A stretch of DNA of 46,091 nucleotides from Candidatus Thorarchaeota archaeon (GCA_020348985.1 CP070761.1:1206448-1252538), one strand, 5' to 3'. Numbered from the stretch's first letter, positions 19,770 through 45,781 are shown. Translations and numbers: made by a program. Notes: a model not told the origin generated them from the letters alone.

Positions 19770-22532
19770 GTGATGAGTTCGTCGCTTGGTTTTCTTGTGG
19801 GAAGCCAAGATGAGGAGAGATTCGAAATGAGAAAGCCGCTCAAAGGCACGCTTCTAATTGCATTACTGTTGGTACCGTCCATCGCAGTCACAGTCTTCGT
19901 GATACAGAGTCAAACGAATGCTGAGCGCCCAGATTCTCAAACACTGGACTTTGATTATTTGGCGAGAACCTTCGGAGAGGAGATTCCTGTTCTTGCGCAA
20001 TTCACTCAGGAACTTACAGCATCCGAGATTCAGGACATCTACTCATTGGGCCTGAAGTTCAGCTTGGGCTCACCTGAATCCAGTCACTTCAAGGAGTTCT
20101 ATCTCATTTGTGGATCAGCGAAAGGCCTGACTGGATTGACACAGCTCGACTACCTCATATCAGTGGACGTGCAAACACGTGTCAACTCACTTCATGCTAC
20201 TCGTGATGTGTCGATACCAGAAATAGATGCAGATGATGTCTGGGCAGCTCTTGATGGGATTGGTCGCAACATCACTGGCGAAGGAATTCTCATTGCAGAC
20301 CTTGATTCCGGGATAGATTGGATGCATCCAGATTTCTGGTTTGCCGACGGTGCAGAGTACGACTGGATGGAGGCCTCGCCAAATGGCTATGTGGACAGTG
20401 GAAACGATACTGTTGACCTGAATGGCGATCTTATCCAGACTGTCGACGAGCGCGTCTACTACATAGACCTTGATAGTAGTGGTACGTTCAACACGACTAC
20501 CGAATGGATTTGGGCTGACAATGTGACTCAGAATGGAGCATGGGAGGTGGGAGAACCATTCTTTGTGGTCAACGACACAAACAGCAATGACCACCTTGAT
20601 CCTGGCGAAAAACTCGTATTGCTCGACACGCCCAAGACACGTTACATTGTTGAAGGAGACGGAACTGCGTCCAGAGAAATCCAGGTCTGGGATCGCGAGG
20701 GTCTAGGAAATCTTACAAGTTCATCACATAGAGACACGAATGGCCACGGCACTGCAGTCTCAGGGATCTTGCTGGGCGGACAGCTAGGCTTCCGCAAGTA
20801 TGTAGGCATTGCTCCCAGTTCAGAACTAATGATGCTAAAGGTCCTTAGTGATAATTGGGCAAATAACGACTACCTCTTGATTGACGAGGCGCTGATATGG
20901 GCCTCCAATCATGGTGCTGACGTCATCCTCATCGAAGTAGGCTCGTGGACTTATCAGTATCTTGACGGAAGCTCACCCATTGAGGGACTTATCGACTCGA
21001 TGGTATCAAGTGGGATTCCCATTATAGCTCCGAGTGGCAACCTGGGAGCGAAGGACAAGCATGCTCTGTTTGATGCTACAGCAGGCACTGCCTATCAGGT
21101 GGATTTCCATTTACCAGATAATGAGCCTCAGATTGAGACCGTCTACATCACTGTCCTATCAAGAAACGCAACTGACTTCAGTACCTGCAACTTCAGTGTG
21201 ATTCTGAACTTGGCCGACTGGGGCGGAGGAATCACAACAGTCTACCTCAATCCGGGAATAGGTCTTCAGATGTTCACCCTAGATACCACGATTATTATTG
21301 GCCCTAATACGATGACTGTAGAATCGTTCATCTCGACTTCAACTCGTTCAACAAGTATGCTTGGCATTCGTATGACAGCCACGACCACGACATTTCCACG
21401 GACCATCGTTCCGCATGGACCACCCGATCATCAATTCAATGTAACAGCACCTTCCAACACAACGTTCCATGCCTACATCTCCGATGACAAGACCTCATGG
21501 TCGGATGGTGCGATCTGGTCTACTGCGATGAAGAACAACTACCTAATAACTTGGCCTTCAACAGCAGACAGCGCTCTCAGTGTTGCGAGCTATAGGACAC
21601 GAAGCCTAGTCGCCCCAGAAGCAATCGGCGATATCGCAAGTTTCTCGGCAATAGGGCCAAGAATTGACGAAACATCAAAACAGGGCATTGCGGCTCCCGG
21701 CGGCTTTGACATAATCACAGACTACTCTAATGAATCCAGTTGGGCCTCGTGGTACAATGCCTTTGGCACACTTCCGTTCGCCGCCAATTTCGCTGGACAC
21801 CAGCTCTTCAGTGGGACAAGCGCTTCAGGACCCCACGTGGCAGGTGCGGCTGCGTTGATGCTTCAGTTGAACAATTCAATCGGTAGTCAAGTAGCTGACC
21901 TTATCAAATCCTCGGCCCGAAAGGATGGATTCACAGGTTCTACTGCGAACTCGGTTTGGGGACATGGAAAGTTGAACGTGTCTGCTGCTGTTGAATCCGT
22001 AGTACCAGCTGGACCTGATGTAACCGGGCCATCAATTGACGTGCCGAACATGTTGCCGGCTGCCCCTGAGGAACCTGATGATGTGACAGTCAGTGTTTAC
22101 GTTTCTGACCCAAGTGGCGTGGATAGTGTAATCCTGTCATACTTCAATGAGACTCATTGGACTAACGTAACTATGGTCTGGAATGGCACCTTCTTTGAAG
22201 CCATTATTCCAGCTCATCCCAATGGGACTGACATTACGTATCGAATATACTCAAATGATACACTTGACAATTGGAGTGTATCTCCGGACTATAGTTACGA
22301 AGTCGGATCTGCAACCACAACCACCACGACAACTACCACCACTACAACCAACACCACGACTACTACAACAACCACAGCAACTACGACCAACACAACTACG
22401 ACGACGCCAGCAACAACAACTACAACTACACCGCCGCTAGAGGAACCCGACCTACTGTTTCTGGCAACGGCACTTTCAATAGTACTCGCCCTGTGTCTGC
22501 TTTCGGTCCTATTCAATCGTCGCCGAGAATGA
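19770..22532 (+). CDS. Secreted, C-terminally anchored S8 subtilase with Thr-rich stalk
   Basis: Signal peptide from MRKPLK (likely start ~19827). Catalytic DLDSG, HGT, SGN and GTSASGP. Ig-like domain, poly-Thr tract, TM helix and NRRRE tail. Confidence 0.9.
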   Translation: MMSSSLGFLVGSQDEERFEMRKPLKGTLLIALLLVPSIAVTVFVIQSQTNAERPDSQTLDFDYLARTFGEEIPVLAQFTQELTASEIQDIYSLGLKFSLGSPESSHFKEFYLICGSAKGLTGLTQLDYLISVDVQTRVNSLHATRDVSIPEIDADDVWAALDGIGRNITGEGILIADLDSGIDWMHPDFWFADGAEYDWMEASPNGYVDSGNDTVDLNGDLIQTVDERVYYIDLDSSGTFNTTTEWIWADNVTQNGAWEVGEPFFVVNDTNSNDHLDPGEKLVLLDTPKTRYIVEGDGTASREIQVWDREGLGNLTSSSHRDTNGHGTAVSGILLGGQLGFRKYVGIAPSSELMMLKVLSDNWANNDYLLIDEALIWASNHGADVILIEVGSWTYQYLDGSSPIEGLIDSMVSSGIPIIAPSGNLGAKDKHALFDATAGTAYQVDFHLPDNEPQIETVYITVLSRNATDFSTCNFSVILNLADWGGGITTVYLNPGIGLQMFTLDTTIIIGPNTMTVESFISTSTRSTSMLGIRMTATTTTFPRTIVPHGPPDHQFNVTAPSNTTFHAYISDDKTSWSDGAIWSTAMKNNYLITWPSTADSALSVASYRTRSLVAPEAIGDIASFSAIGPRIDETSKQGIAAPGGFDIITDYSNESSWASWYNAFGTLPFAANFAGHQLFSGTSASGPHVAGAAALMLQLNNSIGSQVADLIKSSARKDGFTGSTANSVWGHGKLNVSAAVESVVPAGPDVTGPSIDVPNMLPAAPEEPDDVTVSVYVSDPSGVDSVILSYFNETHWTNVTMVWNGTFFEAIIPAHPNGTDITYRIYSNDTLDNWSVSPDYSYEVGSATTTTTTTTTTTTNTTTTTTTTATTTNTTTTTPATTTTTTPPLEEPDLLFLATALSIVLALCLLSVLFNRRRE
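22314..22430 (+). repeat. Low-complexity (ACN)n tract encoding a poly-Thr linker
   Basis: accacaaccaccacgacaactacc... with varied third positions; about 39 codons, mostly Thr. Confidence 0.9.
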
Positions 22533-36638: not shown

Positions 36639-36744
36639 CAAGAAGCAGACACGAAGCCTCTGATTGCTTTGGGATATCAGGCAGGCAAAAGCATATCAGT
36701 CGGACAAATCGAACGAGAGCTCCACGAGCACTGAGGACTATTTG

Positions 36745-39700
36745 ATGAAGACACGCGTCTTGCTGCTGACACTTTTGCTCGGGAATCTACTGATCATCCC
36801 GACTCTAGGTGTTGTCCATTCGTCCGGGGTCTCAGCTGTTTACTATGAGAGTGGACCAATGGTTGAATCTAGACTGAGGTTGGAACTCGCGAGCAGGAAG
36901 GTCTCTTTGACTCTATCTTCAGAGCCTAGCACTCGAGCCGTTCTTGAATTCGAGGATGAGCTTACGGTTCTGGAGATACAGGAGATTGAGAGAGAAGGAA
37001 TACAATTCGAGCGGCGTTGGGAGGGAGTCGTACATTCAGGGAGAATCTACAGTGCGAAAGTCAATAGTCTAGAGTCTTTGCAGAAGGTCGGCAGATTGGG
37101 ACTATTACGTGCTACATCAGGATCGAAGAAGTTCTACCCTGCCATTTCAAGTTCAGTTCCGGCCATTGGAGCGACGGATGTTTGGACGAATCTCAGAAAA
37201 GATGGTGACCAGATTGACGGGTCGGGTGTTACCATTGCTGTGATAGACACAGGAGTTGCATGGCTACATCCTTCTTTCTGGCGAGCGAGTACAGGTCCAA
37301 TCACAGTAATCGAGGATGGCGGTGATTATTTCGCAGACCTGAACAATAATTCCATACCCGATTCTAATGAAGGGCCAATCTACACAACTGGTGATGAAGT
37401 CACAAGCGCATCCATCTATACAGACTACTTGTTCATCGATGTGGGAGGAGATCAGAGTTTCGATTTTGATCACGGCGACCGTTGGCTGGGAGGAATCGAT
37501 TCAGATTCTAACAACGAGATTACAATCCCCTCAGAGGAGGTAGTAGTGCTTGGTGAGTCGAAGATATCATATCTGTATGACCAAGAATACAACAGTGTCT
37601 ACGTTAGAGGCGTGAATCTCACCAGTGCACCTTCCGCGAGCGATTATAATGGCCATGGATCCCACATTGCTTCAACTGCTGCAGGAGGACAGTACGGACA
37701 TACTGCAATGGTAGGGGCTGCGCCTGGCGCGGACCTAATAATAATCAAAAGCCCGCTGGAATCCAGTGACGTTCTGGACGGCATCTACTTCGCCGTCGAA
37801 CATGGCGCAGACGTCATCAATATGTCATTCTCAAGTTATCTAGGGTTTCTAGACGGTACCGACCTGGAAGACCTAGCTGTCACCGAAGCTCTCAGAGCAA
37901 GTGGAACCTTGACGACCTTGGCTGCTGGAAACCTTGGAGGCAGAAACAAGCACGCCAGATTCCAAGTGCCAGGTGGCCAGTCATCAGGTGCAACCTTGAC
38001 TGTTCATGCTCCTCCTGATTATTCGTTCCTCAACATCTTGTGGCATAGTTCAGATGATGACGAACATGTTATTCTGAATTCGCCATCTGGATATCCAATT
38101 GACCTCGGAGAAATCGCAACAGTCACCGGCTCGGCATGGGAGCTAGAATTTGACGAGCTGAATGCCTACGCCTTCGCAGATACGAGCTCACGAGGAACCA
38201 ACCGGATAATAGTGCAGGTTTCAACGGACGCCCACAATTGGACCGGCGGAAGCTGGACAGTGACTGTAACGAACCCAAGCGGAGATTCGGTTTGGGTCGA
38301 TGCGTACGCATGGGACAACACGTGGACGGGGTCATCATTACAGTTCACATCCATGACAGATTTGCAGCGTACAATAAGCTCACCCGGAACTGCGGACCTC
38401 GGGATTGTGGCGAGCTCCTATGATGAATCCGGCGATACTATCAGCTCTACTTCAAGTCGAGGACCGCGCATTGATGGGGCCCCACTTTCGATAGTAGCTG
38501 CACCTGGAGTTGGAATAAGCGCTGCGTCTAGAAGCCTTTCGTCATTGTGGTCAACAAGAAGTGGATCGAGTATGGCCGCTCCTCATCTGGCGGGGGTTCT
38601 AGCTCTTATACGCCAGGCGTCAGACAGTGACAATGGATGGAGAGACCTGTCCGCACTAATTCAAGGAGCTGGAGGAAATGATGACCACTTTTCCCCAGTG
38701 GATCCTTCATGGGGATACGGTCTATGCGATGCAGTGTGGTCGGTGCATCACGTTTTGGATTTCTCTTTTGCAGGCGAAATCGGTGCGTGGACGGGCGTGC
38801 CATCAGCATTCCAAGGTGCGTCCAATCTCTCGATTGACGGCTCTGTTGACATCACTGAAGTGAGAATCTATCCGGAGGTGGGGTCCCTCAACATTGCAGT
38901 AGAACTCAGAGCGGATTCGAATTTCAGTACAGATGATGTGCTCAGCGTTCACTGGGATGTTGACAATAATCCAGCCTCAGGAGACGACGGGATTGATATT
39001 CTTGTCAACATATCTAGCAACCAAGCCTCTATCTTTGAATGGGTTGTTGATCACTATCAGTCGTCATCGCTTTCTGTCAATTGGTTGAACAGGTCTAGTC
39101 ATGCATTCCTGAGATTCCAAAGAACTGATTCATCTCAGCTCGGAAGTCTGACTTTGGCAACTCATAACTCCAGTCACAGCAATCTGGATATGACAACTGC
39201 GCTTCCAATTCCCACGCTTTGGAGACCCACAATCAGTGAATTGACCTTGGATGCTCAGGAAGATGAGTTTAACGTCTTGTTGGTCTTGGACGACAAGGAT
39301 ACGCCATCTGGAGACTTGAACATTGACTGGACGGTCGCAGACGGTGCGCTCTCGACACTTGAATCAGAGAGCCAAGACGGCAGCACAGTGAATGTGTCAG
39401 TTGAGTTGTCCAACTACAACATAGATGAAGTTCTCAGTGTCATCTTCAGCATATCAGATGGAAGCAACTGGCTCTACTTGCCACCTGTAGCACTATCTAC
39501 TGGTTCGGGGCTTGAATTTGGAATTCTCAGTGCCCATCTTGACCAGACATCTATTCGCGTGGGACCCTTCATTCAGGAACACCTAACGGGCGAGATCGTG
39601 ATTGCCGGCGCGGATTTCGTAGATGAGGTAGAGCTTGCACTCCTCGCATTCTATGGATCTTGGCTCAACTTCACTCTCATTGGATCAGGAGGTACCTTCA

Positions 39701-39912
39701 CCATCGACATATTACTCGCGGGCGTCTCTCCAGGAGACTACGAGCCATATGCAGTTGCTACTAGCCTACTTGGGACAATGGATGAACGCCAATTACCCAC
39801 TCTCAGTGTGGTTGAGGACTACTCAATGGTCTTTATAATCGGTGGAATCATGCTTGGAGTAATACTCATCATTGGGATTGCATACATCAGAACAAAGAGG
39901 TCAGCGACTTGA
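36745..39912 (+). CDS. Secreted, membrane-anchored S8 subtilase
   Basis: Signal peptide MKTRVLLL. Catalytic VIDTG, HGSH, AAGN and GSSMAAPH. Beta-rich C-terminal domains, then a TM helix and RTKR. Confidence 0.9.
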   Translation: MKTRVLLLTLLLGNLLIIPTLGVVHSSGVSAVYYESGPMVESRLRLELASRKVSLTLSSEPSTRAVLEFEDELTVLEIQEIEREGIQFERRWEGVVHSGRIYSAKVNSLESLQKVGRLGLLRATSGSKKFYPAISSSVPAIGATDVWTNLRKDGDQIDGSGVTIAVIDTGVAWLHPSFWRASTGPITVIEDGGDYFADLNNNSIPDSNEGPIYTTGDEVTSASIYTDYLFIDVGGDQSFDFDHGDRWLGGIDSDSNNEITIPSEEVVVLGESKISYLYDQEYNSVYVRGVNLTSAPSASDYNGHGSHIASTAAGGQYGHTAMVGAAPGADLIIIKSPLESSDVLDGIYFAVEHGADVINMSFSSYLGFLDGTDLEDLAVTEALRASGTLTTLAAGNLGGRNKHARFQVPGGQSSGATLTVHAPPDYSFLNILWHSSDDDEHVILNSPSGYPIDLGEIATVTGSAWELEFDELNAYAFADTSSRGTNRIIVQVSTDAHNWTGGSWTVTVTNPSGDSVWVDAYAWDNTWTGSSLQFTSMTDLQRTISSPGTADLGIVASSYDESGDTISSTSSRGPRIDGAPLSIVAAPGVGISAASRSLSSLWSTRSGSSMAAPHLAGVLALIRQASDSDNGWRDLSALIQGAGGNDDHFSPVDPSWGYGLCDAVWSVHHVLDFSFAGEIGAWTGVPSAFQGASNLSIDGSVDITEVRIYPEVGSLNIAVELRADSNFSTDDVLSVHWDVDNNPASGDDGIDILVNISSNQASIFEWVVDHYQSSSLSVNWLNRSSHAFLRFQRTDSSQLGSLTLATHNSSHSNLDMTTALPIPTLWRPTISELTLDAQEDEFNVLLVLDDKDTPSGDLNIDWTVADGALSTLESESQDGSTVNVSVELSNYNIDEVLSVIFSISDGSNWLYLPPVALSTGSGLEFGILSAHLDQTSIRVGPFIQEHLTGEIVIAGADFVDEVELALLAFYGSWLNFTLIGSGGTFTIDILLAGVSPGDYEPYAVATSLLGTMDERQLPTLSVVEDYSMVFIIGGIMLGVILIIGIAYIRTKRSAT

Positions 39913-41192
39913 AGATAGTAGTTGTCGGCTATGGCCCAGGAGGTGCAAACGCTGCCTTCATGGCCCGCATCTTTGACCCCAATGTAGAGGTCACCATAAT
40001 CACACAGGAGGAAGTCGAGGCACATAGAAAACCAGGCGCTTCGATGGCCCTCGAGTTCCCTGAGTCGTCCGATCTGCTGATTGGTGACTGGTCATACGCC
40101 AAGCTAAAGGAGAGAGGAGTAAACATTCTACCAGGAGTCAAAGTCCTGAGTGGAGACGTTTCAACGAAGGTTCTTGAGATCGAGGATTCTAGAGGCAAGA
40201 AGTCCAAGATCGAATATGACAAGCTTATCTTGGCGACCGGCGGAATACCCTCCGTTCCGGACCTTCCGGGCACTGACCTTGAAGGAGTCTTTACAATATC
40301 GGATATGATTGACGCCAAAAAGATTGGTGAGAAACTCTCAGGATTGAACAAGATCATTATCGTGGGAGCAGGATTCAGCGGACTCGAAACAGCCGAGAGG
40401 TTGATGACCCTAGGGAAAGAAGTCCATATCATCATTCGATCTAGGCTCATGAGACGTCTACTTGAGGAACCGATGTCTCTTGAGCTACAGTCACGCATTC
40501 CAAAAGACATCATCTTGCACATTGGCAGATCCCCAACAGCAGTACTAGGAGACGAACGAGTAACTGGAATTGCACTGGACGGGGATGAAATCGAGGCAGA
40601 TGCGGTCCTCTTCATGACTGGTGTGAGACCGAACAAGAAACTGGCGAAATCACTTGGACTAGAAATCGGATCTCGCGGCGGTGTCAAAGTCAATTCCGTG
40701 ATGCAGACCTCCAACAAGGACATCTATGCGGTCGGAGATTGTGTCGAGCTAATTGACTCAATGACAGGCAAGCCATCTCTACTCCCTATAGGAAGCGCGG
40801 CAGCCCGGGCGGGTATGCAGGCGGGTGTCATAGCCGTCGGTAGAAACCGTCAATACGAGAACATTGGACTCAGGCTTCAGTATGACAGAATCTTCAACAC
40901 CGACATCATCTGTGTTGGTCAGTCTTCTACTACCGCAGCGGATGCGGATATTGAGACCGAGATTCATTACTCCGAAGATCCTGCAGAGTATCTCAAGGTT
41001 GCACTATTGACAACCAAAGACGGGACGTTGATTGGTGGACAAGTCTTGGCGTCCAGAATGGGAGGAAGGGTAGCGTATCAAATCATGGAGAGAGTCCAGT
41101 CTGGCGCTAACCTGAAAGACAGACCGCTTCTTCAGCCAAGACACAAGAGACTAAGAGAGCACCTTGAAGAGATGCTCGGACCTATTCAATAG
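39909..41192 (+). CDS. FAD/NAD(P)H-dependent oxidoreductase (NADH oxidase/CoA-disulfide reductase-like)
   Basis: VVGYGPGG, YDKLILATG, IVGAGFSGLE, TGVRPN, TSNKDIYAVGDC. TTGA start/stop overlap with the upstream subtilase. Confidence 0.88.
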   Translation: MKIVVVGYGPGGANAAFMARIFDPNVEVTIITQEEVEAHRKPGASMALEFPESSDLLIGDWSYAKLKERGVNILPGVKVLSGDVSTKVLEIEDSRGKKSKIEYDKLILATGGIPSVPDLPGTDLEGVFTISDMIDAKKIGEKLSGLNKIIIVGAGFSGLETAERLMTLGKEVHIIIRSRLMRRLLEEPMSLELQSRIPKDIILHIGRSPTAVLGDERVTGIALDGDEIEADAVLFMTGVRPNKKLAKSLGLEIGSRGGVKVNSVMQTSNKDIYAVGDCVELIDSMTGKPSLLPIGSAAARAGMQAGVIAVGRNRQYENIGLRLQYDRIFNTDIICVGQSSTTAADADIETEIHYSEDPAEYLKVALLTTKDGTLIGGQVLASRMGGRVAYQIMERVQSGANLKDRPLLQPRHKRLREHLEEMLGPIQ

Positions 41193-44079
41193 CAGGAGGA
41201 GCTCCACTGGTATCCTCCCATCTGGGTTCCCACTCTCTTTGAGGCCTGCGACCAATGCCGAGTCTTTTGATAGCTACAAAGCCTAGCCCGACTGCAACTA
41301 CTGCTACCAAGGATACCACAACGGTGATGATGAAAGTATCATCAGCAAGATTTACTGGGACAAGAAACGTTCGGGATAATATCTTTGTATTCCCAGAAGT
41401 ATCGCGTGCAGTGAGGACAACATCATAGAAGCCGCCTGAAACCAGTGTGAACTCTGAGACGAACATGTATCCGAGCGATTCAACCGCCGGAGGACTGATG
41501 TTCGTCCCATTCGGAAGAGAGATCTCTATCCCAACTGATTCTAGCGTATCATCAAAGACGTATGCTGTGACATTCGCAATATCACCGATTTTCCCAGTGT
41601 TGAAATCGACTGCAAGAACAGAGGGTCTCTCGGGGATGAGGGCAGCAGCCACATTTCGAAGCAATGCCAGATTGTCTGCACCGTATCTTATTGCGTCGTA
41701 AGTTGTGCTGTCATATAGCGCTGACCCGTCAGATATCGCGATTACCTTCCCTTCACCGAAGTCAACTGTAGCCACAATGGCATGTGTCTTTGCGGAGTCG
41801 GTCCATAGTAGGCCCTGGGCGCCAGCAACGTTTGGATCAACGCTCAACGTACTACCCGCAATTATGAACAGATTTCTTACACCTTCTACAAGTGGATGGT
41901 CCTCAACCGCCCCCCCATAGTCAGCTCCGTAAATGTCGCCGGTTAGATCAGTAGGGAGGCCCCCGATGCCGCGTCTCTCGCATTGGATCCCATATGGTTC
42001 AAGAATCTGATTGTAGCTTTCAAAACCAAATGATGCCACGTCCGTACTGGTGTCGTAGAACTCTGAAAGTATCAGTAGGACACCGCCGTCTTCCACATAG
42101 TCATGAATGGCCTCAATCTCGTCGACAGAATATGCTTCTTCGGTGTCCATCACCATGAAAGCGTCTGAACTCGACAGGGATGCATAGCTAGCAGGGATTG
42201 GTCTGTCCGGACTTCCTAATTCGTCAATAACCATTCTCTGGTCACGAAGATACTCGCGCAAGAACTTGTAGAACGTTGGGTCATCTGGATCATCTGCTGA
42301 ATGGTGAGACATGTCGACGAGAACCGAACCTCCGAAGAAGGTTATCTCGAAGGAGAGGTCCATTCCAGTAATCTCGGTCGTGCCGTCCATCAAAGCAAGT
42401 CTTCCAGTGTACTCTCCAGCGGCTGTAAGGGGCAGCAAGTCAGGTATATCTAGAGTAATCCCGAAATAGGAGTATCCCACGTTTACACGGACACTTCCCG
42501 CGTCAGTTGTGATGAACTGACTTGCGTTGCCACTCATTTCAATCGCCAGTGTTCCTCGGTTGACGGTGGACAATACAGTAACATTCTGTGGATCTCGTTC
42601 ATCTCCCGCCACGAACGCAAGCGGACTTCCAGGAAGTGCTGGAAACCGCATTGGTGCCAGCAAAGTGAAGACACCTGAACTCGATTCGAGTAGTTCTGAA
42701 CTCCTGGTGACATTTGCCAGTCCCCATCCTTGTGCCATTGGATCGTCACCCAGGTCTGTGGCTCCTGCCATGAGCGCCGTCTTAATCTCTAACGGAGAGA
42801 GTCCAGGGTGTTTGTCCATGAGTAGAGCGACCAGCCCCGCAATCTGAGGAGTTGAAGCTGATGTGCCTGACCAAATCGTATAGCTGGTCCCGAACTGGCT
42901 CGAGTTGTAGATGGGAAATTCCTCTGCAAGAATTCCGACAGCTCTTGCCGACATTACCTTGTAGCCAGGCGCAGAAACATCGGGTTTTGCAAACATTCCC
43001 AAAGGAGGAGTGATTAATCTTTGAACTGGACCGCGGCTGCTGAAACCAATCACTCCGGACGCACCTGAAGTGGATGCTATTGTGATTGCCTCCTCTGTTA
43101 CGCCGGGAGAGTTCAATGTGAGAGCAGCAGGACCATCATTACCTGCTGCTATGACGACTGTGATTCCTTCCGCAACCGCAGACTCGCACGCAGCAATTGT
43201 TGGATCAGAAAGGAGTGGAATCTGTATCCAGTCCCCACCGACACTGAGGCTAATAATATCTACACCACTGTCACGTGCATACTCGATTGCTTCCGCCAAG
43301 AGTGTGTTGGCTGCTTCACCTGCGGCATCGAGAGACTTAATGATCAGGAGGTCTGCTCCTGGAGCCATGCCCGTGTACACCCCACTGGAAGCAGCTCCAG
43401 TTCCCGCAACCAACCAAGCCACAGCAGTTCCGTGACCATTGTCATCATAAGCTGCAATCCCATCGCTTGGGTCTAGGTCATCTTGATTACCTATCATGTC
43501 TCGGAAGCCGATGATTCGACCGTCCAAGTCAGGGTGGTCACCATCAGCTCCACTGTCGATGATCGCCACTGTAACTCCGGATCCGTCATAGCCCTGGTCT
43601 CGGAAGTCATCAGCGTCTAGCAAGACATCAGGGTGTGTGTATCCGAGTGCGCCGGGTACTTGTTGGCTTGATAGTACAGTATCCGTGCTGAGTGCTCTGA
43701 CTTTCTGGTCGAGTGATATGCCGACAAGTGAACTAATCTTGAGAGCTTCCTCAATTGCTCCTGCAGTCGCAACTGCAGACACCTTGGGCATGATGTGAAA
43801 GATGTGTCTGATTGAAAGTCCAGGTAGAGATTCCCGTTCCAATTCAGCTTCCATTTCCTCCGATGTGAAGCCCTCGGGAAAGTGCAACACAATCGGTATG
43901 ACTGAATCAGCAGACGACTTCTGAATCTCGGCTGCGAGAGTCGGACCAATAATGGGTCGACCAACAGATGAGCCGGATGATATCGAAGTCGCGAGCAACA
44001 CTGGTGAAGGTGCAATTAGTAGAGTAAGCACTGCAATCACTAGTAGTCTTCTAGGAAATGGAAAGAAGGTCTCTGACAT
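41182..44079 (-). CDS. Membrane-anchored S8 subtilase with Site-1 protease (MBTPS1/SKI-1)-like architecture
   Basis: Signal peptide, prodomain, IIDSG/HGT/AAGNDGP/GTSASTP, Ig-like domain, GATase1/DUF4350-like domain, TM helix and cytoplasmic tail. Confidence 0.85.
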   Translation of the reverse strand: MSETFFPFPRRLLVIAVLTLLIAPSPVLLATSISSGSSVGRPIIGPTLAAEIQKSSADSVIPIVLHFPEGFTSEEMEAELERESLPGLSIRHIFHIMPKVSAVATAGAIEEALKISSLVGISLDQKVRALSTDTVLSSQQVPGALGYTHPDVLLDADDFRDQGYDGSGVTVAIIDSGADGDHPDLDGRIIGFRDMIGNQDDLDPSDGIAAYDDNGHGTAVAWLVAGTGAASSGVYTGMAPGADLLIIKSLDAAGEAANTLLAEAIEYARDSGVDIISLSVGGDWIQIPLLSDPTIAACESAVAEGITVVIAAGNDGPAALTLNSPGVTEEAITIASTSGASGVIGFSSRGPVQRLITPPLGMFAKPDVSAPGYKVMSARAVGILAEEFPIYNSSQFGTSYTIWSGTSASTPQIAGLVALLMDKHPGLSPLEIKTALMAGATDLGDDPMAQGWGLANVTRSSELLESSSGVFTLLAPMRFPALPGSPLAFVAGDERDPQNVTVLSTVNRGTLAIEMSGNASQFITTDAGSVRVNVGYSYFGITLDIPDLLPLTAAGEYTGRLALMDGTTEITGMDLSFEITFFGGSVLVDMSHHSADDPDDPTFYKFLREYLRDQRMVIDELGSPDRPIPASYASLSSSDAFMVMDTEEAYSVDEIEAIHDYVEDGGVLLILSEFYDTSTDVASFGFESYNQILEPYGIQCERRGIGGLPTDLTGDIYGADYGGAVEDHPLVEGVRNLFIIAGSTLSVDPNVAGAQGLLWTDSAKTHAIVATVDFGEGKVIAISDGSALYDSTTYDAIRYGADNLALLRNVAAALIPERPSVLAVDFNTGKIGDIANVTAYVFDDTLESVGIEISLPNGTNISPPAVESLGYMFVSEFTLVSGGFYDVVLTARDTSGNTKILSRTFLVPVNLADDTFIITVVVSLVAVVAVGLGFVAIKRLGIGRRPQREWEPRWEDTSGAPPAIE

Positions 44080-44226
44080 CTTCGAATGTCCGTCCGCCTG
44101 AATTTGCGCGGGTGCAAAGATAAGGATTCTGATGTGTGAAACGTCAAAGATCCGAGAAGAATCGTATAGCTCGGCATTCCCGAGAAATGAGAAGATATCA
44201 CTTCAAACATAAGATAACTTGAGGGC

Positions 44227-44559
44227 GTGAACAGAACGCCCACCTTAGATAAGGAGAGCAAGAAGAAGTTGGGTGATAGACCACAACAATATGAGAGGCG
44301 GCTGCAGGTTAAGCACTTCTTTGATGATAAGCAGACTGGCGCCAAGCGGCGAACGTGGCTAGAGCTGCAGTTCTTGCCGCCTGAGAAGACCACAGAAGGA
44401 TGGGTCAATGATGGCAAGATTAGATTGTCCTTGGGAGAAGACCGGGACATCAAAGGAGCGTTCCTACTTTCGATTGATGAAGCTTGCAGATTGTACAAGG
44501 CCCTGGAAATGATCGTCGAGGACCACGAGGCTGAGAAAGGAAGACTCTGGAGTGAGTAG
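44227..44559 (+). CDS. Small hypothetical protein, possible Whirly/PC4/PUR-like fold
   Basis: Four predicted beta-strands followed by LSIDEACRLYKAL helix. Start may be TTG 44269 after AAGGAG. Confidence 0.6.
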   Translation: MNRTPTLDKESKKKLGDRPQQYERRLQVKHFFDDKQTGAKRRTWLELQFLPPEKTTEGWVNDGKIRLSLGEDRDIKGAFLLSIDEACRLYKALEMIVEDHEAEKGRLWSE

Positions 44560-44621
44560 GGCTTGAGCCCAGAATTGACCCGATCGTAGCGATCGGGCCG
44601 TCCTCGAGTTTCTTTTGAGGA
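44559..44621 (+). terminator. Cluster of three inverted repeats after the 44227 gene
   Basis: GGGCT-TG-AGCCC; CCCGATCG-TAG-CGATCGGG (44579-44597); TCCTCGAG-TTTCT-TTTGAGGA. Confidence 0.35.
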
Positions 44622-44686
44622 TGTCTGCACACCATTTTTAACGCGCCAATCAGACTATGTGACTGTAGATTCGAGGAGGATTTCCT

Positions 44687-45781
44687 TTGGTTATTCCCAC
44701 TACAGAATCTGGAGCCATACCATTGATTGAATTTGAGTTCCCGGGCAGTGATCTAGTTGCAGTAATGCCCTACGTTTTGCCGCTTCTCTTCATTGGAGCA
44801 CTTCTGATCTTGTATCAGAGGTTCATGGATAGAACGGAGAGAAAGAGAAACGCGATTCTAGGTGGCGGGATTGTATGCGTGCTGTTCTCAATTGGATTAA
44901 TCGCCTACGCTGGCTTTGGCTCAGGTTGGTGGAGAGCTGATCAGCAGTCATTTGGATCGTGGTGGGAATTCATGGCAGTCATTCAGTGGCTGACGGATAC
45001 TCTGTTCGACTCTGTCTACGTTGGCACAATCTACGTCTTTGCGATGTTGTTCATAGTGGCGATAATCGGCCGGTCCATAATCGCACCTCCCAATCCTGAC
45101 TTCGTGAAGCTCAACGATGAGCTCAAGGAAGCCAGGTCCGTAGCTGAAGGTGCAGGAGCCAGGATTCAAGAAGCCGAGGTCGAGAACAAGAGGTTGAATG
45201 AGTTCATCTCTGAGAAAGAGTCTGCGTTAGGTGAACTCCAGACTCAAGTAGATTCGCTACAGGAAAGGATAGCCGTCCTCCAGTCTCAGTTGGCAGAACC
45301 CACAGCTGTTCCTACGGACGCCACTAGAGAAGAAGAGCTTCTCACCGTAATCTCGCAGAAAGACCAGACCATCACCTCATTACAGGCAGAGATAGCCACA
45401 CTCAAACAATCAGCAGAGACGGGGGTTGTAGTGTCAGCTGTAGGAGTTTCTGAAGATGTAGCACGTCTACAGAGCCTGATTGCTGAGAAGGACGAAAAGT
45501 TAGACGAGTATGGACGGAGAGCTGAGACGGCGTCAGAGGTTTCAGACAGTGTCATCTCAGACCTAGTGGAGCTCATATCACTTGTGGAAGGAAGCAGTCT
45601 TGAAGTTCCTGCTAAGAAGGCACTAACGGGATTGATCGAGGGACTTGGTCGGGCAATTGGAAGAGTAGCAGGACCCCCAGATCAAAGAACAAAAGAAGAC
45701 CCGAAGATTGAGATGATAGGTGCTGTCATGATGGTTCATGAAATGGTTGACGGCATCAAGAGACTGGCTCGTGGTTCCTAG
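44687..45781 (+). CDS. Membrane protein (about 3 TM) with long cytoplasmic coiled coil
   Basis: Hydrophobic N-terminal third, heptad-rich middle and a helical C-terminal domain; GAGGAGG SD. Confidence 0.75.
   Translation: MVIPTTESGAIPLIEFEFPGSDLVAVMPYVLPLLFIGALLILYQRFMDRTERKRNAILGGGIVCVLFSIGLIAYAGFGSGWWRADQQSFGSWWEFMAVIQWLTDTLFDSVYVGTIYVFAMLFIVAIIGRSIIAPPNPDFVKLNDELKEARSVAEGAGARIQEAEVENKRLNEFISEKESALGELQTQVDSLQERIAVLQSQLAEPTAVPTDATREEELLTVISQKDQTITSLQAEIATLKQSAETGVVVSAVGVSEDVARLQSLIAEKDEKLDEYGRRAETASEVSDSVISDLVELISLVEGSSLEVPAKKALTGLIEGLGRAIGRVAGPPDQRTKEDPKIEMIGAVMMVHEMVDGIKRLARGS

What the first reader, a model, noticed from the sequence alone, without database searches (positions are those of the whole stretch)
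41182..44079. Archaeal Site-1 protease (MBTPS1/SKI-1)-like enzyme
Seen: signal peptide, prodomain, S8 domain, Ig-like domain, alpha/beta domain, TM helix and tail. Compared from memory with human S1P, similarity extends outside the catalytic core. MDTEEAYSVDEI resembles VDSEEEYFPEEI; GGVLLILSEFYDT resembles GLSLVIFSDWYNT; QNVTVLS resembles VNVTILN; GNDGPAALTLNSP resembles GNDGPLYGTLNNP; IKTALMAGATDL...QGWG resembles MKQALIASARRL...QGHG. Established: S1P initiates regulated intramembrane proteolysis of SREBP and ATF6 in the Golgi. Inference: a prokaryotic orthologue or precursor of S1P that may process membrane-tethered substrates.
Basis: partly seen in the sequence, partly recalled or inferred. 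Interest (0 to 1): 0.8.

Follow-up and report, generated by a model that had tools for sequence, protein, structure and literature searches.

The report
Thorarchaeal membrane subtilase built like S1P
This Asgard (Thorarchaeota-type) gene encodes an intact, membrane-anchored, probably sugar-coated subtilisin-type protease whose outer head has the same three-domain build as the eukaryotic site-1 protease, which hints at an archaeal root for that body plan, but neither direct descent of S1P from this protein nor any signalling role is shown.

Summary
The ORF at 41182-44079 (-) is real: 965 aa. It reads signal-type helix, propeptide, S8 domain (triad D175/H216/S407, oxyanion N314, all invariant), beta-sandwich, GIFT (GATase-like) domain, filamin-like Ig domain, TM helix and a conserved tail.

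For S1P:
- Human S1P is the best full-length Foldseek match in the PDB (E 2.8e-37, 776 columns).
- The post-catalytic part aligns colinearly with S1P by hhalign (96.7-99.1%).
- A near-invariant N-glycan sequon aligns with human N515.
- The loop that packs on GIFT in S1P carries an insertion found only in S1P and this clade among 129 S8 domains.

Against orthology:
- There are no Pfam hits to MBTP1_N or MBTPS1_3rd.
- The S1P signature GNDGPxYGTxNNPADQ is absent.
- The catalytic domain is closer to Tk-SP, and the GIFT domain closer to IFT52.
- In the best S8 tree S1P sits weakly with Heimdall-type Asgard S8-GIFT proteins, not with this clade.

The family is near-universal in the window's own family. 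Relatives occur in Loki-, Odin-, Heimdall-, Asgardarchae- and Ranarchaeia. No evidence links it to regulated intramembrane proteolysis. The scan had already found the same kind on other genomes.

The parts
41182..44079 (-). Whole gene, 965 codons plus stop: membrane-anchored S8-GIFT subtilase
43975..44079 (-). N-terminal signal-type region (residues 1-35; hydrophobic helix 8-22)
   Evidence: sequence; helix in model
43690..43962 (-). Propeptide, residues 40-130, alpha/beta fold like the Tk-SP N-propeptide
   Evidence: phmmer and VIA alignments to ProN-Tk-SP 3afg start at residues 40-43; secondary structure
43639..43689 (-). Variable, disordered linker 131-147 holding the presumed autoprocessing site
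   Evidence: pLDDT under 50; no conserved motif
42685..43638 (-). Peptidase S8 catalytic domain, residues 148-465
   Evidence: Pfam E 1.8e-52; invariant D175, H216, N314, S407
43555..43557 (-). Catalytic Asp175
   Evidence: invariant in 33 homologues
43432..43434 (-). Catalytic His216
43138..43140 (-). Oxyanion-hole Asn314
   Evidence: aligns with S1P N338
42859..42861 (-). Catalytic Ser407
42988..43029 (-). 14-residue loop 351-364 between SSRG and KPD (P-x-G-Y/M motif): an insertion shared only with S1P
   Evidence: equivalent S1P loop 372-384 packs on GIFT (PMC11231238)
42313..42672 (-). Beta-sandwich domain 470-589, in the position of the S1P P-like subdomain and of the Tk-SP beta-jelly roll
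42577..42585 (-). N499-V-T sequon, present in 31 of 33 homologues, aligned with the invariant S1P sequon (human N515)
   Evidence: for the role of N515
41626..42312 (-). GIFT (GATase1-like) domain 590-818
41356..41622 (-). Filamin-type Ig-like domain 820-908
   Evidence: model; profile hits to filamin repeats E 3e-7
41260..41340 (-). Transmembrane helix 914-940
   Evidence: model helix 914-940; hydrophobic stretch followed by basic residues
41185..41259 (-). Cytoplasmic tail 941-965: basic patch, conserved EWE motif, near-invariant C-terminal PPxIE

Best explanation
The gene encodes a type-I membrane protein: an active subtilisin-type serine protease displayed on the outside of a Thorarchaeota-type Asgard cell.

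Inferred mechanism:
- It is exported through its N-terminal signal.
- It folds with the help of its N-terminal propeptide and removes that propeptide autocatalytically.
- It is N-glycosylated at five conserved sequons.
- It stays tethered by a C-terminal TM helix.
- Its conserved cytoplasmic tail (EWE...PPxIE) contacts an unknown cytoplasmic partner.

The protease head consists of S8 + beta-sandwich + GIFT. This is the same three-domain plan as eukaryotic S1P, where GIFT buttresses the oxyanion-hole loops. I take that plan to be homologous between a pan-Asgard S8-GIFT superfamily and S1P. This protein belongs to one clade of that superfamily and is not demonstrably the clade nearest to S1P.

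I lean (about 55:35) to limited proteolysis of the cell's own surface or secreted proteins rather than bulk protein digestion for food. Shown: gene, domains, intact active site, family distribution, alignment and fold matches. Inferred: topology, glycosylation, autoprocessing, homology of the whole plan, substrates.
For: - Intact ORF with an invariant triad and oxyanion Asn.
- hhalign is colinear: 491 columns across S8, sandwich and GIFT. C-terminal part alone: 90%, 96.7% E 3.6e-10. Pan-Asgard profile: 98-99.1%, E down to 1.2e-18.
- Five conserved sequons, and N499 aligns with S1P N515.
- Shared loop insertion.
- Orthologues in 70 of 85 genomes of the window's own family, with conserved gene neighbours in all seven Thorarchaeota loci compared and a conserved tail.
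- Named relatives occur in six Asgard classes.
- The best constrained tree joining S1P with the Asgard S8-GIFT group has a higher likelihood than the free quick tree. The careful tree puts S1P with Asgard S8-GIFT clades at 87/95 and 82/79.
Against: - No Pfam hit to MBTP1_N or MBTPS1_3rd, and MBTPS1_4th scores 26.8 bits against a cut-off of 27.
- The S1P signature GNDGPxYGTxNNPADQ is absent.
- In a pattern-seeded, capped sample of GTDB genomes, the S8 domain of S1P scores better against generic archaeal and bacterial subtilases without GIFT (E 5e-41) than against Thorarchaeota (2e-27).
- In the careful tree this clade lies on the side of the generic subtilases.
- AU tests reject nothing: p 0.45, 0.30, 0.90.
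- The relative domain orientation differs from S1P (rmsd 8.5-10 A, TM 0.38-0.48).
- No experiment exists.
Confidence: 0.7

Rival explanations
1. One reading: this protein is the prokaryotic orthologue or direct precursor of S1P and performs site-1-type regulated cleavage of membrane-tethered substrates, followed by an M50 site-2 protease.
For: The body plan, TM anchor, aligned glycan sequon and GIFT-contact loop insertion are shared with S1P. Two M50 genes exist in the genome. The AU test does not reject S1P + this clade (p 0.30).
Against: M50 is found in all 14 control genomes, so it carries no information, and it is not linked to this gene. There is no conserved R-x-x-L-type motif at the propeptide junction. 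The Pfam S1P-specific models and the catalytic signature are not met. The careful tree separates this clade from S1P. Neighbours are a small unknown protein, a membrane coiled-coil protein and an oxidoreductase, none a recognisable tethered regulator.
Confidence: 0.1
2. Convergence: S8 and GIFT domains were fused independently in Asgard archaea and on the eukaryotic stem, so the resemblance of the plan is analogy between two widespread prokaryotic modules.
For: GIFT/DUF4350/GldG-type domains are common: 1017 representatives at E<=0.001, many without S8. This GIFT is nearer to IFT52 than to S1P. The S8 domain is nearer to Tk-SP. The S8 phylogeny is unresolved. Some Asgard paralogues carry GIFT about 640 residues away from S8, which shows that the architecture is plastic.
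Against: The order of three domains, including the intervening beta-sandwich, is the same, with a colinear alignment. A sequon aligns at the position of S1P N515. The rare loop insertion is shared. All named prokaryotic S8-GIFT proteins recovered are Asgard. The best trees join S1P to Asgard S8-GIFT clades.
Confidence: 0.25
3. Same protein, different job: a cell-surface feeding protease that digests environmental proteins in bulk, as proposed for other envelope-anchored archaeal subtilases. The extra domains would serve only for stability or substrate and glycan binding.
For: The closest solved relative is the hyperthermophile's secreted Tk-SP. The window alone holds two more large S8 genes, and the genome holds at least five S8 loci, which suggests an expanded proteolytic arsenal.
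Against: The orthologue is essentially single-copy and kept at about 50% identity across the family. It has a strongly conserved cytoplasmic tail and conserved neighbours. These fit a specific cellular role better, but this is weak, indirect evidence.
Confidence: 0.35

Closest known systems
Eukaryotic site-1 protease (S1P / SKI-1 / MBTPS1; PDB 8UW8, 8UWC, 9CSD; PMC11231238)
   Same: - Same order: signal, propeptide, S8, beta-sandwich, GIFT, TM, short tail.
- Top full-length Foldseek match.
- Colinear hhalign through all three ectodomain domains.
- Aligned N-glycan sequon (human N515).
- Extended SSRG-KPD loop that contacts GIFT in S1P.
- About 30-34% identity in S8.
   Different: - No match to the Pfam S1P propeptide or third-domain models.
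- The S1P catalytic signature is absent.
- S1P GIFT carries large insertions.
- This protein has an extra filamin-like Ig domain.
- The tail is acidic/aromatic with PPxIE rather than basic.
- Domain orientation differs (rmsd 8.5-10 A).
- No SPRING, SREBP or ATF6 context.
- Not sister to S1P in the best tree.
Tk-SP, subtilisin-like protease of Thermococcus kodakarensis (PDB 3AFG, 9UES)
   Different: Tk-SP is soluble and ends after the beta-jelly roll, with no GIFT, Ig, TM or tail. Its SSRG-KPD loop is 7 residues shorter.
GIFT domains of IFT52 (5FMR/5FMS) and OST48/DDOST (6S7O, 8B6L)
   Different: Those proteins have no protease domain and act as scaffold subunits of IFT-B and oligosaccharyltransferase.
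Other Asgard S8-GIFT subtilases (Heimdall-, Odin-, Ranarchaeia- and Asgardarchaeia-type; also a 1480-aa paralogue in this genome)
   Same: S8 followed by beta-sandwich and GIFT. All are membrane proteins annotated only as 'S8 family serine peptidase'.
   Different: Only 15-29% identity in the C-terminal part. They have a 7-residue SSRG-KPD loop and different C-termini, for example zinc ribbons. In the careful tree some of them, not this clade, sit next to S1P.

Membership tests
Peptidase S8 (subtilases) | Asp-His-Ser triad in that order plus oxyanion Asn, and a match to the S8 model | tested here: met
   PF00082 E 1.8e-52; D175, H216, N314 and S407 invariant in 33 homologues
S1P / MBTPS1 | S1P-type propeptide (Pfam MBTP1_N, PF23001) | tested here: not met
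   No hit for residues 1-165 even at E 10. True S1Ps from metagenomes hit it. The propeptide resembles Tk-SP N-pro instead.
S1P / MBTPS1 | Third, Ig-like (P-like) domain (Pfam MBTPS1_3rd, PF23094) | tested here: inconclusive
   No Pfam hit. A beta-sandwich sits in the same place, and hhalign aligns it with S1P 501-616, including the N515 sequon. With the diverse S1P profile only its last strands align.
S1P / MBTPS1 | Fourth, GATase-like (GIFT) domain (Pfam MBTPS1_4th, PF23090) | tested here: inconclusive
   26.8 bits against a cut-off of 27. hhalign 96.7-99.1% to S1P GIFT. IFT52 scores higher.
S1P / MBTPS1 | Catalytic-domain signature GNDGPxYGTxNNPADQ conserved in eukaryotic S1P | tested here: not met
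   P0001 has GNDGPAALTLNSPGVT. The signature was used as the search pattern, and the further ADQ/ADN and SSRG-loop context is conserved in the S1P genes it recovered.
S1P / MBTPS1 | Extended 13-residue loop between SSRG and KPD that packs on GIFT | tested here: met
   The loop is 14 residues here with P-x-G-M/Y, against 13 in all S1Ps. It is 1-10 residues (mostly 6-7) in 73 non-GIFT S8 domains and 7-10 in the other 30 Asgard S8-GIFT proteins.
S1P / MBTPS1 | C-terminal TM anchor with a short cytosolic tail | tested here: met
   Helix 914-940 plus a 25-residue tail. The tail sequence is unrelated to the basic S1P tail.
S1P / MBTPS1 | Catalytic domain branches with S1P in a phylogeny | tested here: inconclusive
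   The careful tree places S1P with Heimdall-type and other S8-GIFT clades (82/79, 87/95) and this clade on the other side. AU tests do not reject S1P + this clade (p 0.30) or S1P with generic S8 (p 0.45).
S1P / MBTPS1 | Cleavage after R-x-hydrophobic-x motifs, and a role upstream of a site-2 protease | not testable with these tools
   Needs enzymology. M50 presence is uninformative. No conserved motif at the propeptide junction.
GIFT domain (GldG / IFT52 / OST48 / S1P clan) | GATase1-like alpha/beta fold with the conserved D-x-E...GG core | tested here: met

The most novel reading that the evidence does not exclude
The pan-Asgard S8 + beta-sandwich + GIFT membrane subtilases are the archaeal stock from which eukaryotic S1P descended vertically. 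That would make S1P an overlooked eukaryotic signature protein. On this reading the clade of this gene retains ancestral S1P features that other clades lost (the GIFT-contact loop and the N515-equivalent glycan site). The GIFT-Ig-TM module would also be kin to the ancestors of OST48 and IFT52.
Probability: 0.3. Interest if true: 0.8.

Novelty: new variant of a known kind. Interest (0 to 1): 0.55.

Why it matters
S1P gates sterol, ER-stress and lysosomal signalling in eukaryotes, and its three-domain head (S8, P-like, GIFT) was regarded as unique among secretory-pathway convertases (PMC11231238). A conserved, apparently active family with the same head in Asgard archaea would push the origin of this body plan, and possibly of the GIFT modules of OST48 and IFT52, before eukaryogenesis. 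It would also give a tractable prokaryotic model for how GIFT supports a subtilase. Public records name these proteins only 'S8 family serine peptidase', and no paper in the held library describes them. The claim is still architectural: descent and function are open.

Tried and rejected
1. A profile of residues 465-915 searched against 1.84 billion representatives found 1017 hits. None of the nine S8-GIFT hits scanned matched any MBTPS1 Pfam model, and S1P scores too low with this profile to be listed.
2. With vertebrate-only S1P, the tree joined S1P to other long branches. AU tests were uninformative.
3. AU test of 'S1P with generic S8' on the careful tree did not finish, so no result.
4. GC-rich metagenome ORFs with MBTP1_N + S8 but no GIFT were suspected to be prokaryotic S1Ps. 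Rejected: in both contigs checked (L116, L102) the GIFT part lies in a separate frame downstream, and L116 carries Sec62, so they are intron-bearing eukaryotic genes.
5. M50 site-2 protease search: present, but universal in the controls.
6. Search for an R-x-x-L-type autoprocessing motif in the linker: not conserved.
7. ORF 44040-44630 (-) as an upstream partner: it is the antisense shadow of a conserved 110-aa gene on the + strand.
8. Rfam on 43900-44800: nothing.
9. The Heimdall-type C-terminal profile is not closer to S1P than the Thor-type profile (95%, 131 columns against 96.7%, 237 columns).
10. Reverse search of the S1P S8 domain in GTDB genomes returned generic subtilases with NosD, PKD or DUF5667 tails as best hits.
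11. Literature searches found no prior description.

Note on method: the query was a 72-residue stretch of human S1P copied from the tool output.
Full report
**Observation.** The ORF at 41182-44079 (-) is open for 965 codons. The window lies in a single 3.16-Mb contig. Its closest protein relatives are labelled Thorarchaeota. Pfam finds Peptidase_S8 at 166-453 (E 1.8e-52). It also finds, below threshold, four related GATase-like/GIFT models at about 600-790: MBTPS1_4th, DUF4350, ABC_transp_aux and IFT52_GIFT. In an alignment of 33 homologues (A1) the triad D175/H216/S407 and the oxyanion N314 are invariant.

The AlphaFold2 model (pLDDT 80, pTM 0.71) gives these parts:
- a signal-type helix
- an alpha/beta propeptide (43-128)
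- a disordered linker
- S8
- a beta-sandwich (472-589)
- an alpha/beta domain (590-818)
- a second beta-sandwich (820-907)
- a TM helix (914-940)
- a 25-residue tail

**What S1P looks like.** The cryo-EM paper describes S1P as signal peptide, pro-domains A and B, S8, a 'P-like' beta-sandwich (479-616), a GIFT subdomain (617-998), a TM helix and a short tail. It states that GIFT is distinctive for S1P among the convertases. It also reports that S8 loops 338-348 and 372-384 pack on GIFT, and that the N515 glycan in the P-like subdomain is needed for maturation (PMC11231238).

**Structure and profile comparisons.**
- With the full model, Foldseek ranks S1P first in the PDB: 9csd_A E 2.8e-37 over 776 columns, and 8uw8_A 4.7e-34. 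This is ahead of Tk-SP (1e-33). TM is only 0.38-0.48 and rmsd about 10 A.
- So the propeptide, S8 and first beta-sandwich are most like an archaeal Tk-SP-type subtilisin. S1P is the only solved protein that also covers the GIFT part.
- A separate model of residues 465-915 (pLDDT 87) hits S1P (6.5e-13) and OST48 (1.4e-12) almost equally in Foldseek, then IFT52.
- At sequence level a single sequence gives S1P E 0.39 and the family profile gives 0.016.
- A profile of the C-terminal parts of all Asgard S8-GIFT clades (A5) gives IFT52 1.7e-16, S1P 4e-11, filamin repeats 3e-7 and OST48 8e-5.
- hhalign against vertebrate S1P is colinear over 491 columns, from S8 into GIFT.
- For the post-catalytic part alone, hhalign gives 90% and 98% with A5.
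- Against a diverse eukaryotic S1P alignment (A6; see the next section) it gives 96.7% (E 3.6e-10, 237 columns) and 99.1% (E 1.2e-18).

**Getting S1P diversity.**
- A 72-residue human S1P stretch printed retrieved vertebrate S1Ps only.
- A DNA pattern for the S1P signature GNDGPxYGTxNNP, scanned over metagenomes, returned 80 loci.
- Many of these carry intron-less, full-length S1P genes with the complete Pfam set MBTP1_N, S8, MBTPS1_3rd and MBTPS1_4th.
- One GC-rich group looked like 'S1P without GIFT'. It proved to be intron-bearing and eukaryotic: in the two contigs checked the GIFT part lies in a separate frame, and one of them carries Sec62.
- Against these true S1Ps, P0001 lacks MBTP1_N and MBTPS1_3rd hits, and its MBTPS1_4th score is 26.8 against a cut-off of 27. 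It also lacks the signature.

**Discrete shared characters.**
- Five N-glycosylation sequons are conserved in the ectodomain: N392 in 28/33, N456 in 32/33, N499 in 31/33, N518 in 33/33 and N836 in 30/33 homologues. This fits an extracellular, glycosylated protein.
- N499-V-T aligns with the S1P sequon of human N515. That sequon is invariant in the 17 diverse S1Ps.
- Among 129 S8 domains, the loop between SSRG and KPD is 1-10 residues (mostly 6-7) in 73 non-GIFT subtilases and 7-10 in the 30 other Asgard S8-GIFT proteins. It is 14 residues in all 21 members of this clade and 13 in S1P, with a common P-x-G-Y core.
- It is the only indel shared by S1P and any prokaryotic group in the alignment.
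- It is constant in the metagenomic S1Ps.
- It corresponds to the S1P loop 372-384 that packs on GIFT.
- This is suggestive. But it is a single loop character with an obvious functional reason to arise twice.

**Phylogeny of the S8 domain.**
- A reverse search with S1P as reference found generic archaeal and bacterial subtilases as best matches (E 5e-41 to 1e-37). Their tails are NosD, PKD/Calx or DUF5667. A Heimdallarchaeota S8-GIFT protein scored 3e-29 and Thorarchaeota 2e-27 and weaker. The search was pattern-seeded and capped.
- In the window's own genome S1P hits P0001 best, but only by 2 bits (59 against 57), plus a weak second match in GIFT.
- With vertebrate S1P only, the tree was dominated by a long branch, and the AU test did not reject S1P with generic S8 (p 0.45).
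- With 13 diverse S1Ps, the quick tree put S1P outside the Asgard S8-GIFT group.
- The tree constrained to join them had a log-likelihood 26 units higher (p-AU 0.90).
- The careful search (lnL -33328) placed S1P with the Heimdall-type clade and the clade of this genome's 1480-aa paralogue (82/79). That sits inside a larger S8-GIFT group (87/95). The clade of P0001 (100/98) lay on the other side, with the generic subtilases.
- S1P + this clade is not rejected (p 0.30).
- A last AU test did not finish.
- The Heimdall-type C-terminal profile is no closer to S1P than the Thor-type one.
- In sum, the catalytic domain weakly favours a link between S1P and Asgard S8-GIFT proteins as a whole. It does not single out this protein.

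**Distribution and context.**
- Strong orthologues (most with E below 1e-100) occur in 70 of 85 genomes of the window's family.
- Weaker S8-GIFT relatives occur in many other Asgard families. The largest sampled family has almost none (2 of 135).
- Named members come from Thor-, Loki-, Odin- and Heimdallarchaeota, Asgardarchaeia and Ranarchaeia.
- Gene order is conserved in seven Thorarchaeota loci: a divergent 110-aa gene, then a membrane coiled-coil protein upstream, and a convergent pyridine-nucleotide-disulphide oxidoreductase and a second large S8 gene downstream. None of these suggests a substrate.
- M50 proteases exist but are universal.
- The tail is conserved: a basic patch, then EWE, then a near-invariant C-terminal PPxIE. 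This argues for a cytoplasmic partner.

**Interpretation.**
- The best-supported reading is an active, glycosylated, C-terminally anchored ecto-protease. Its head is built on the S1P plan.
- I hold homology of the plan between Asgard S8-GIFT proteins and S1P at about 60%, and convergence at about 25%.
- Direct orthology of this protein with S1P, with a site-1-type signalling role, stands at about 10%.
- Function is inferred only: limited proteolysis of own surface or secreted proteins (leaning) against bulk feeding.

**Prior work.**
- No paper in the held library describes this.
- The scan's own notes show that the same kind was reported on at least 38 other genomes with similar verdicts.
- New here: the loop-insertion character, the aligned N515-type sequon, the diverse S1P set taken from metagenomes, the careful tree with AU tests, the tail motif and the conserved neighbours.

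Noticed in passing
window 44227-44559 (+): Small gene of about 100-110 aa, divergent from the protease gene. It is 63-74% identical in seven Thorarchaeota loci and has no Pfam family. The 196-aa ORF 44040-44630 (-) is only its antisense shadow.
   Followed up: partly
window 44687-45781 (+): 364-aa protein with an N-terminal hydrophobic region (probable TM segments, by eye) followed by a long coiled coil. It is a conserved neighbour of the protease in Thorarchaeota (42-51% identity). Only weak coiled-coil Pfam hits.
   Followed up: partly
window 36664-39912 (+) and 19770-22532 (+): Two further large subtilase genes (1082 and 920 aa) in the same window. Their S8 domains are stretched or split by insertions (Pfam span 186-667; two stretches). 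The first is also a conserved neighbour in Thorarchaeota loci.
   Followed up: no
L213:749-5191 (+) = G000:C1:2856248-2860690: Second S8...GIFT paralogue in the same genome: 1480 aa, with about 640 residues between S8 and a weak GIFT match. In the careful S8 tree its clade lies nearer to S1P than the clade of the gene studied.
   Followed up: partly
window 41185-41259 (-), residues 941-965: Cytoplasmic tail with conserved EWE and a near-invariant C-terminal PPxIE across 33 homologues. No known motif could be assigned. It suggests a cytoplasmic binding partner.
   Followed up: partly
L096, L099, L101, L106, L111, L131, L138, L155, L165, L166, L168 (metagenome contigs): Intron-less, full-length S1P genes (917-1403 aa), presumably from microbial eukaryotes. 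All carry the 13-residue WELPxGYGRVKPD-type loop and the invariant N515-type sequon. They are useful for rooting S1P.
   Followed up: yes
alignment A5 (pan-Asgard C-terminal parts): The profile also matches the C-terminal half of OST48 (E 8e-5, OST48 240-398), and structurally OST48 aligns over GIFT plus the following Ig-like domain. The GIFT-Ig-TM-tail module therefore parallels the OST48 body plan.
   Followed up: partly
L029:3192-5918 (+), Heimdallarchaeota contig RDOB01000002.1: 909-aa Heimdallarchaeota S8-GIFT protein. It was the best-scoring Asgard match to the S1P catalytic domain in the reverse search (E 3e-29), and it groups near S1P in the careful tree on a long branch.
   Followed up: partly
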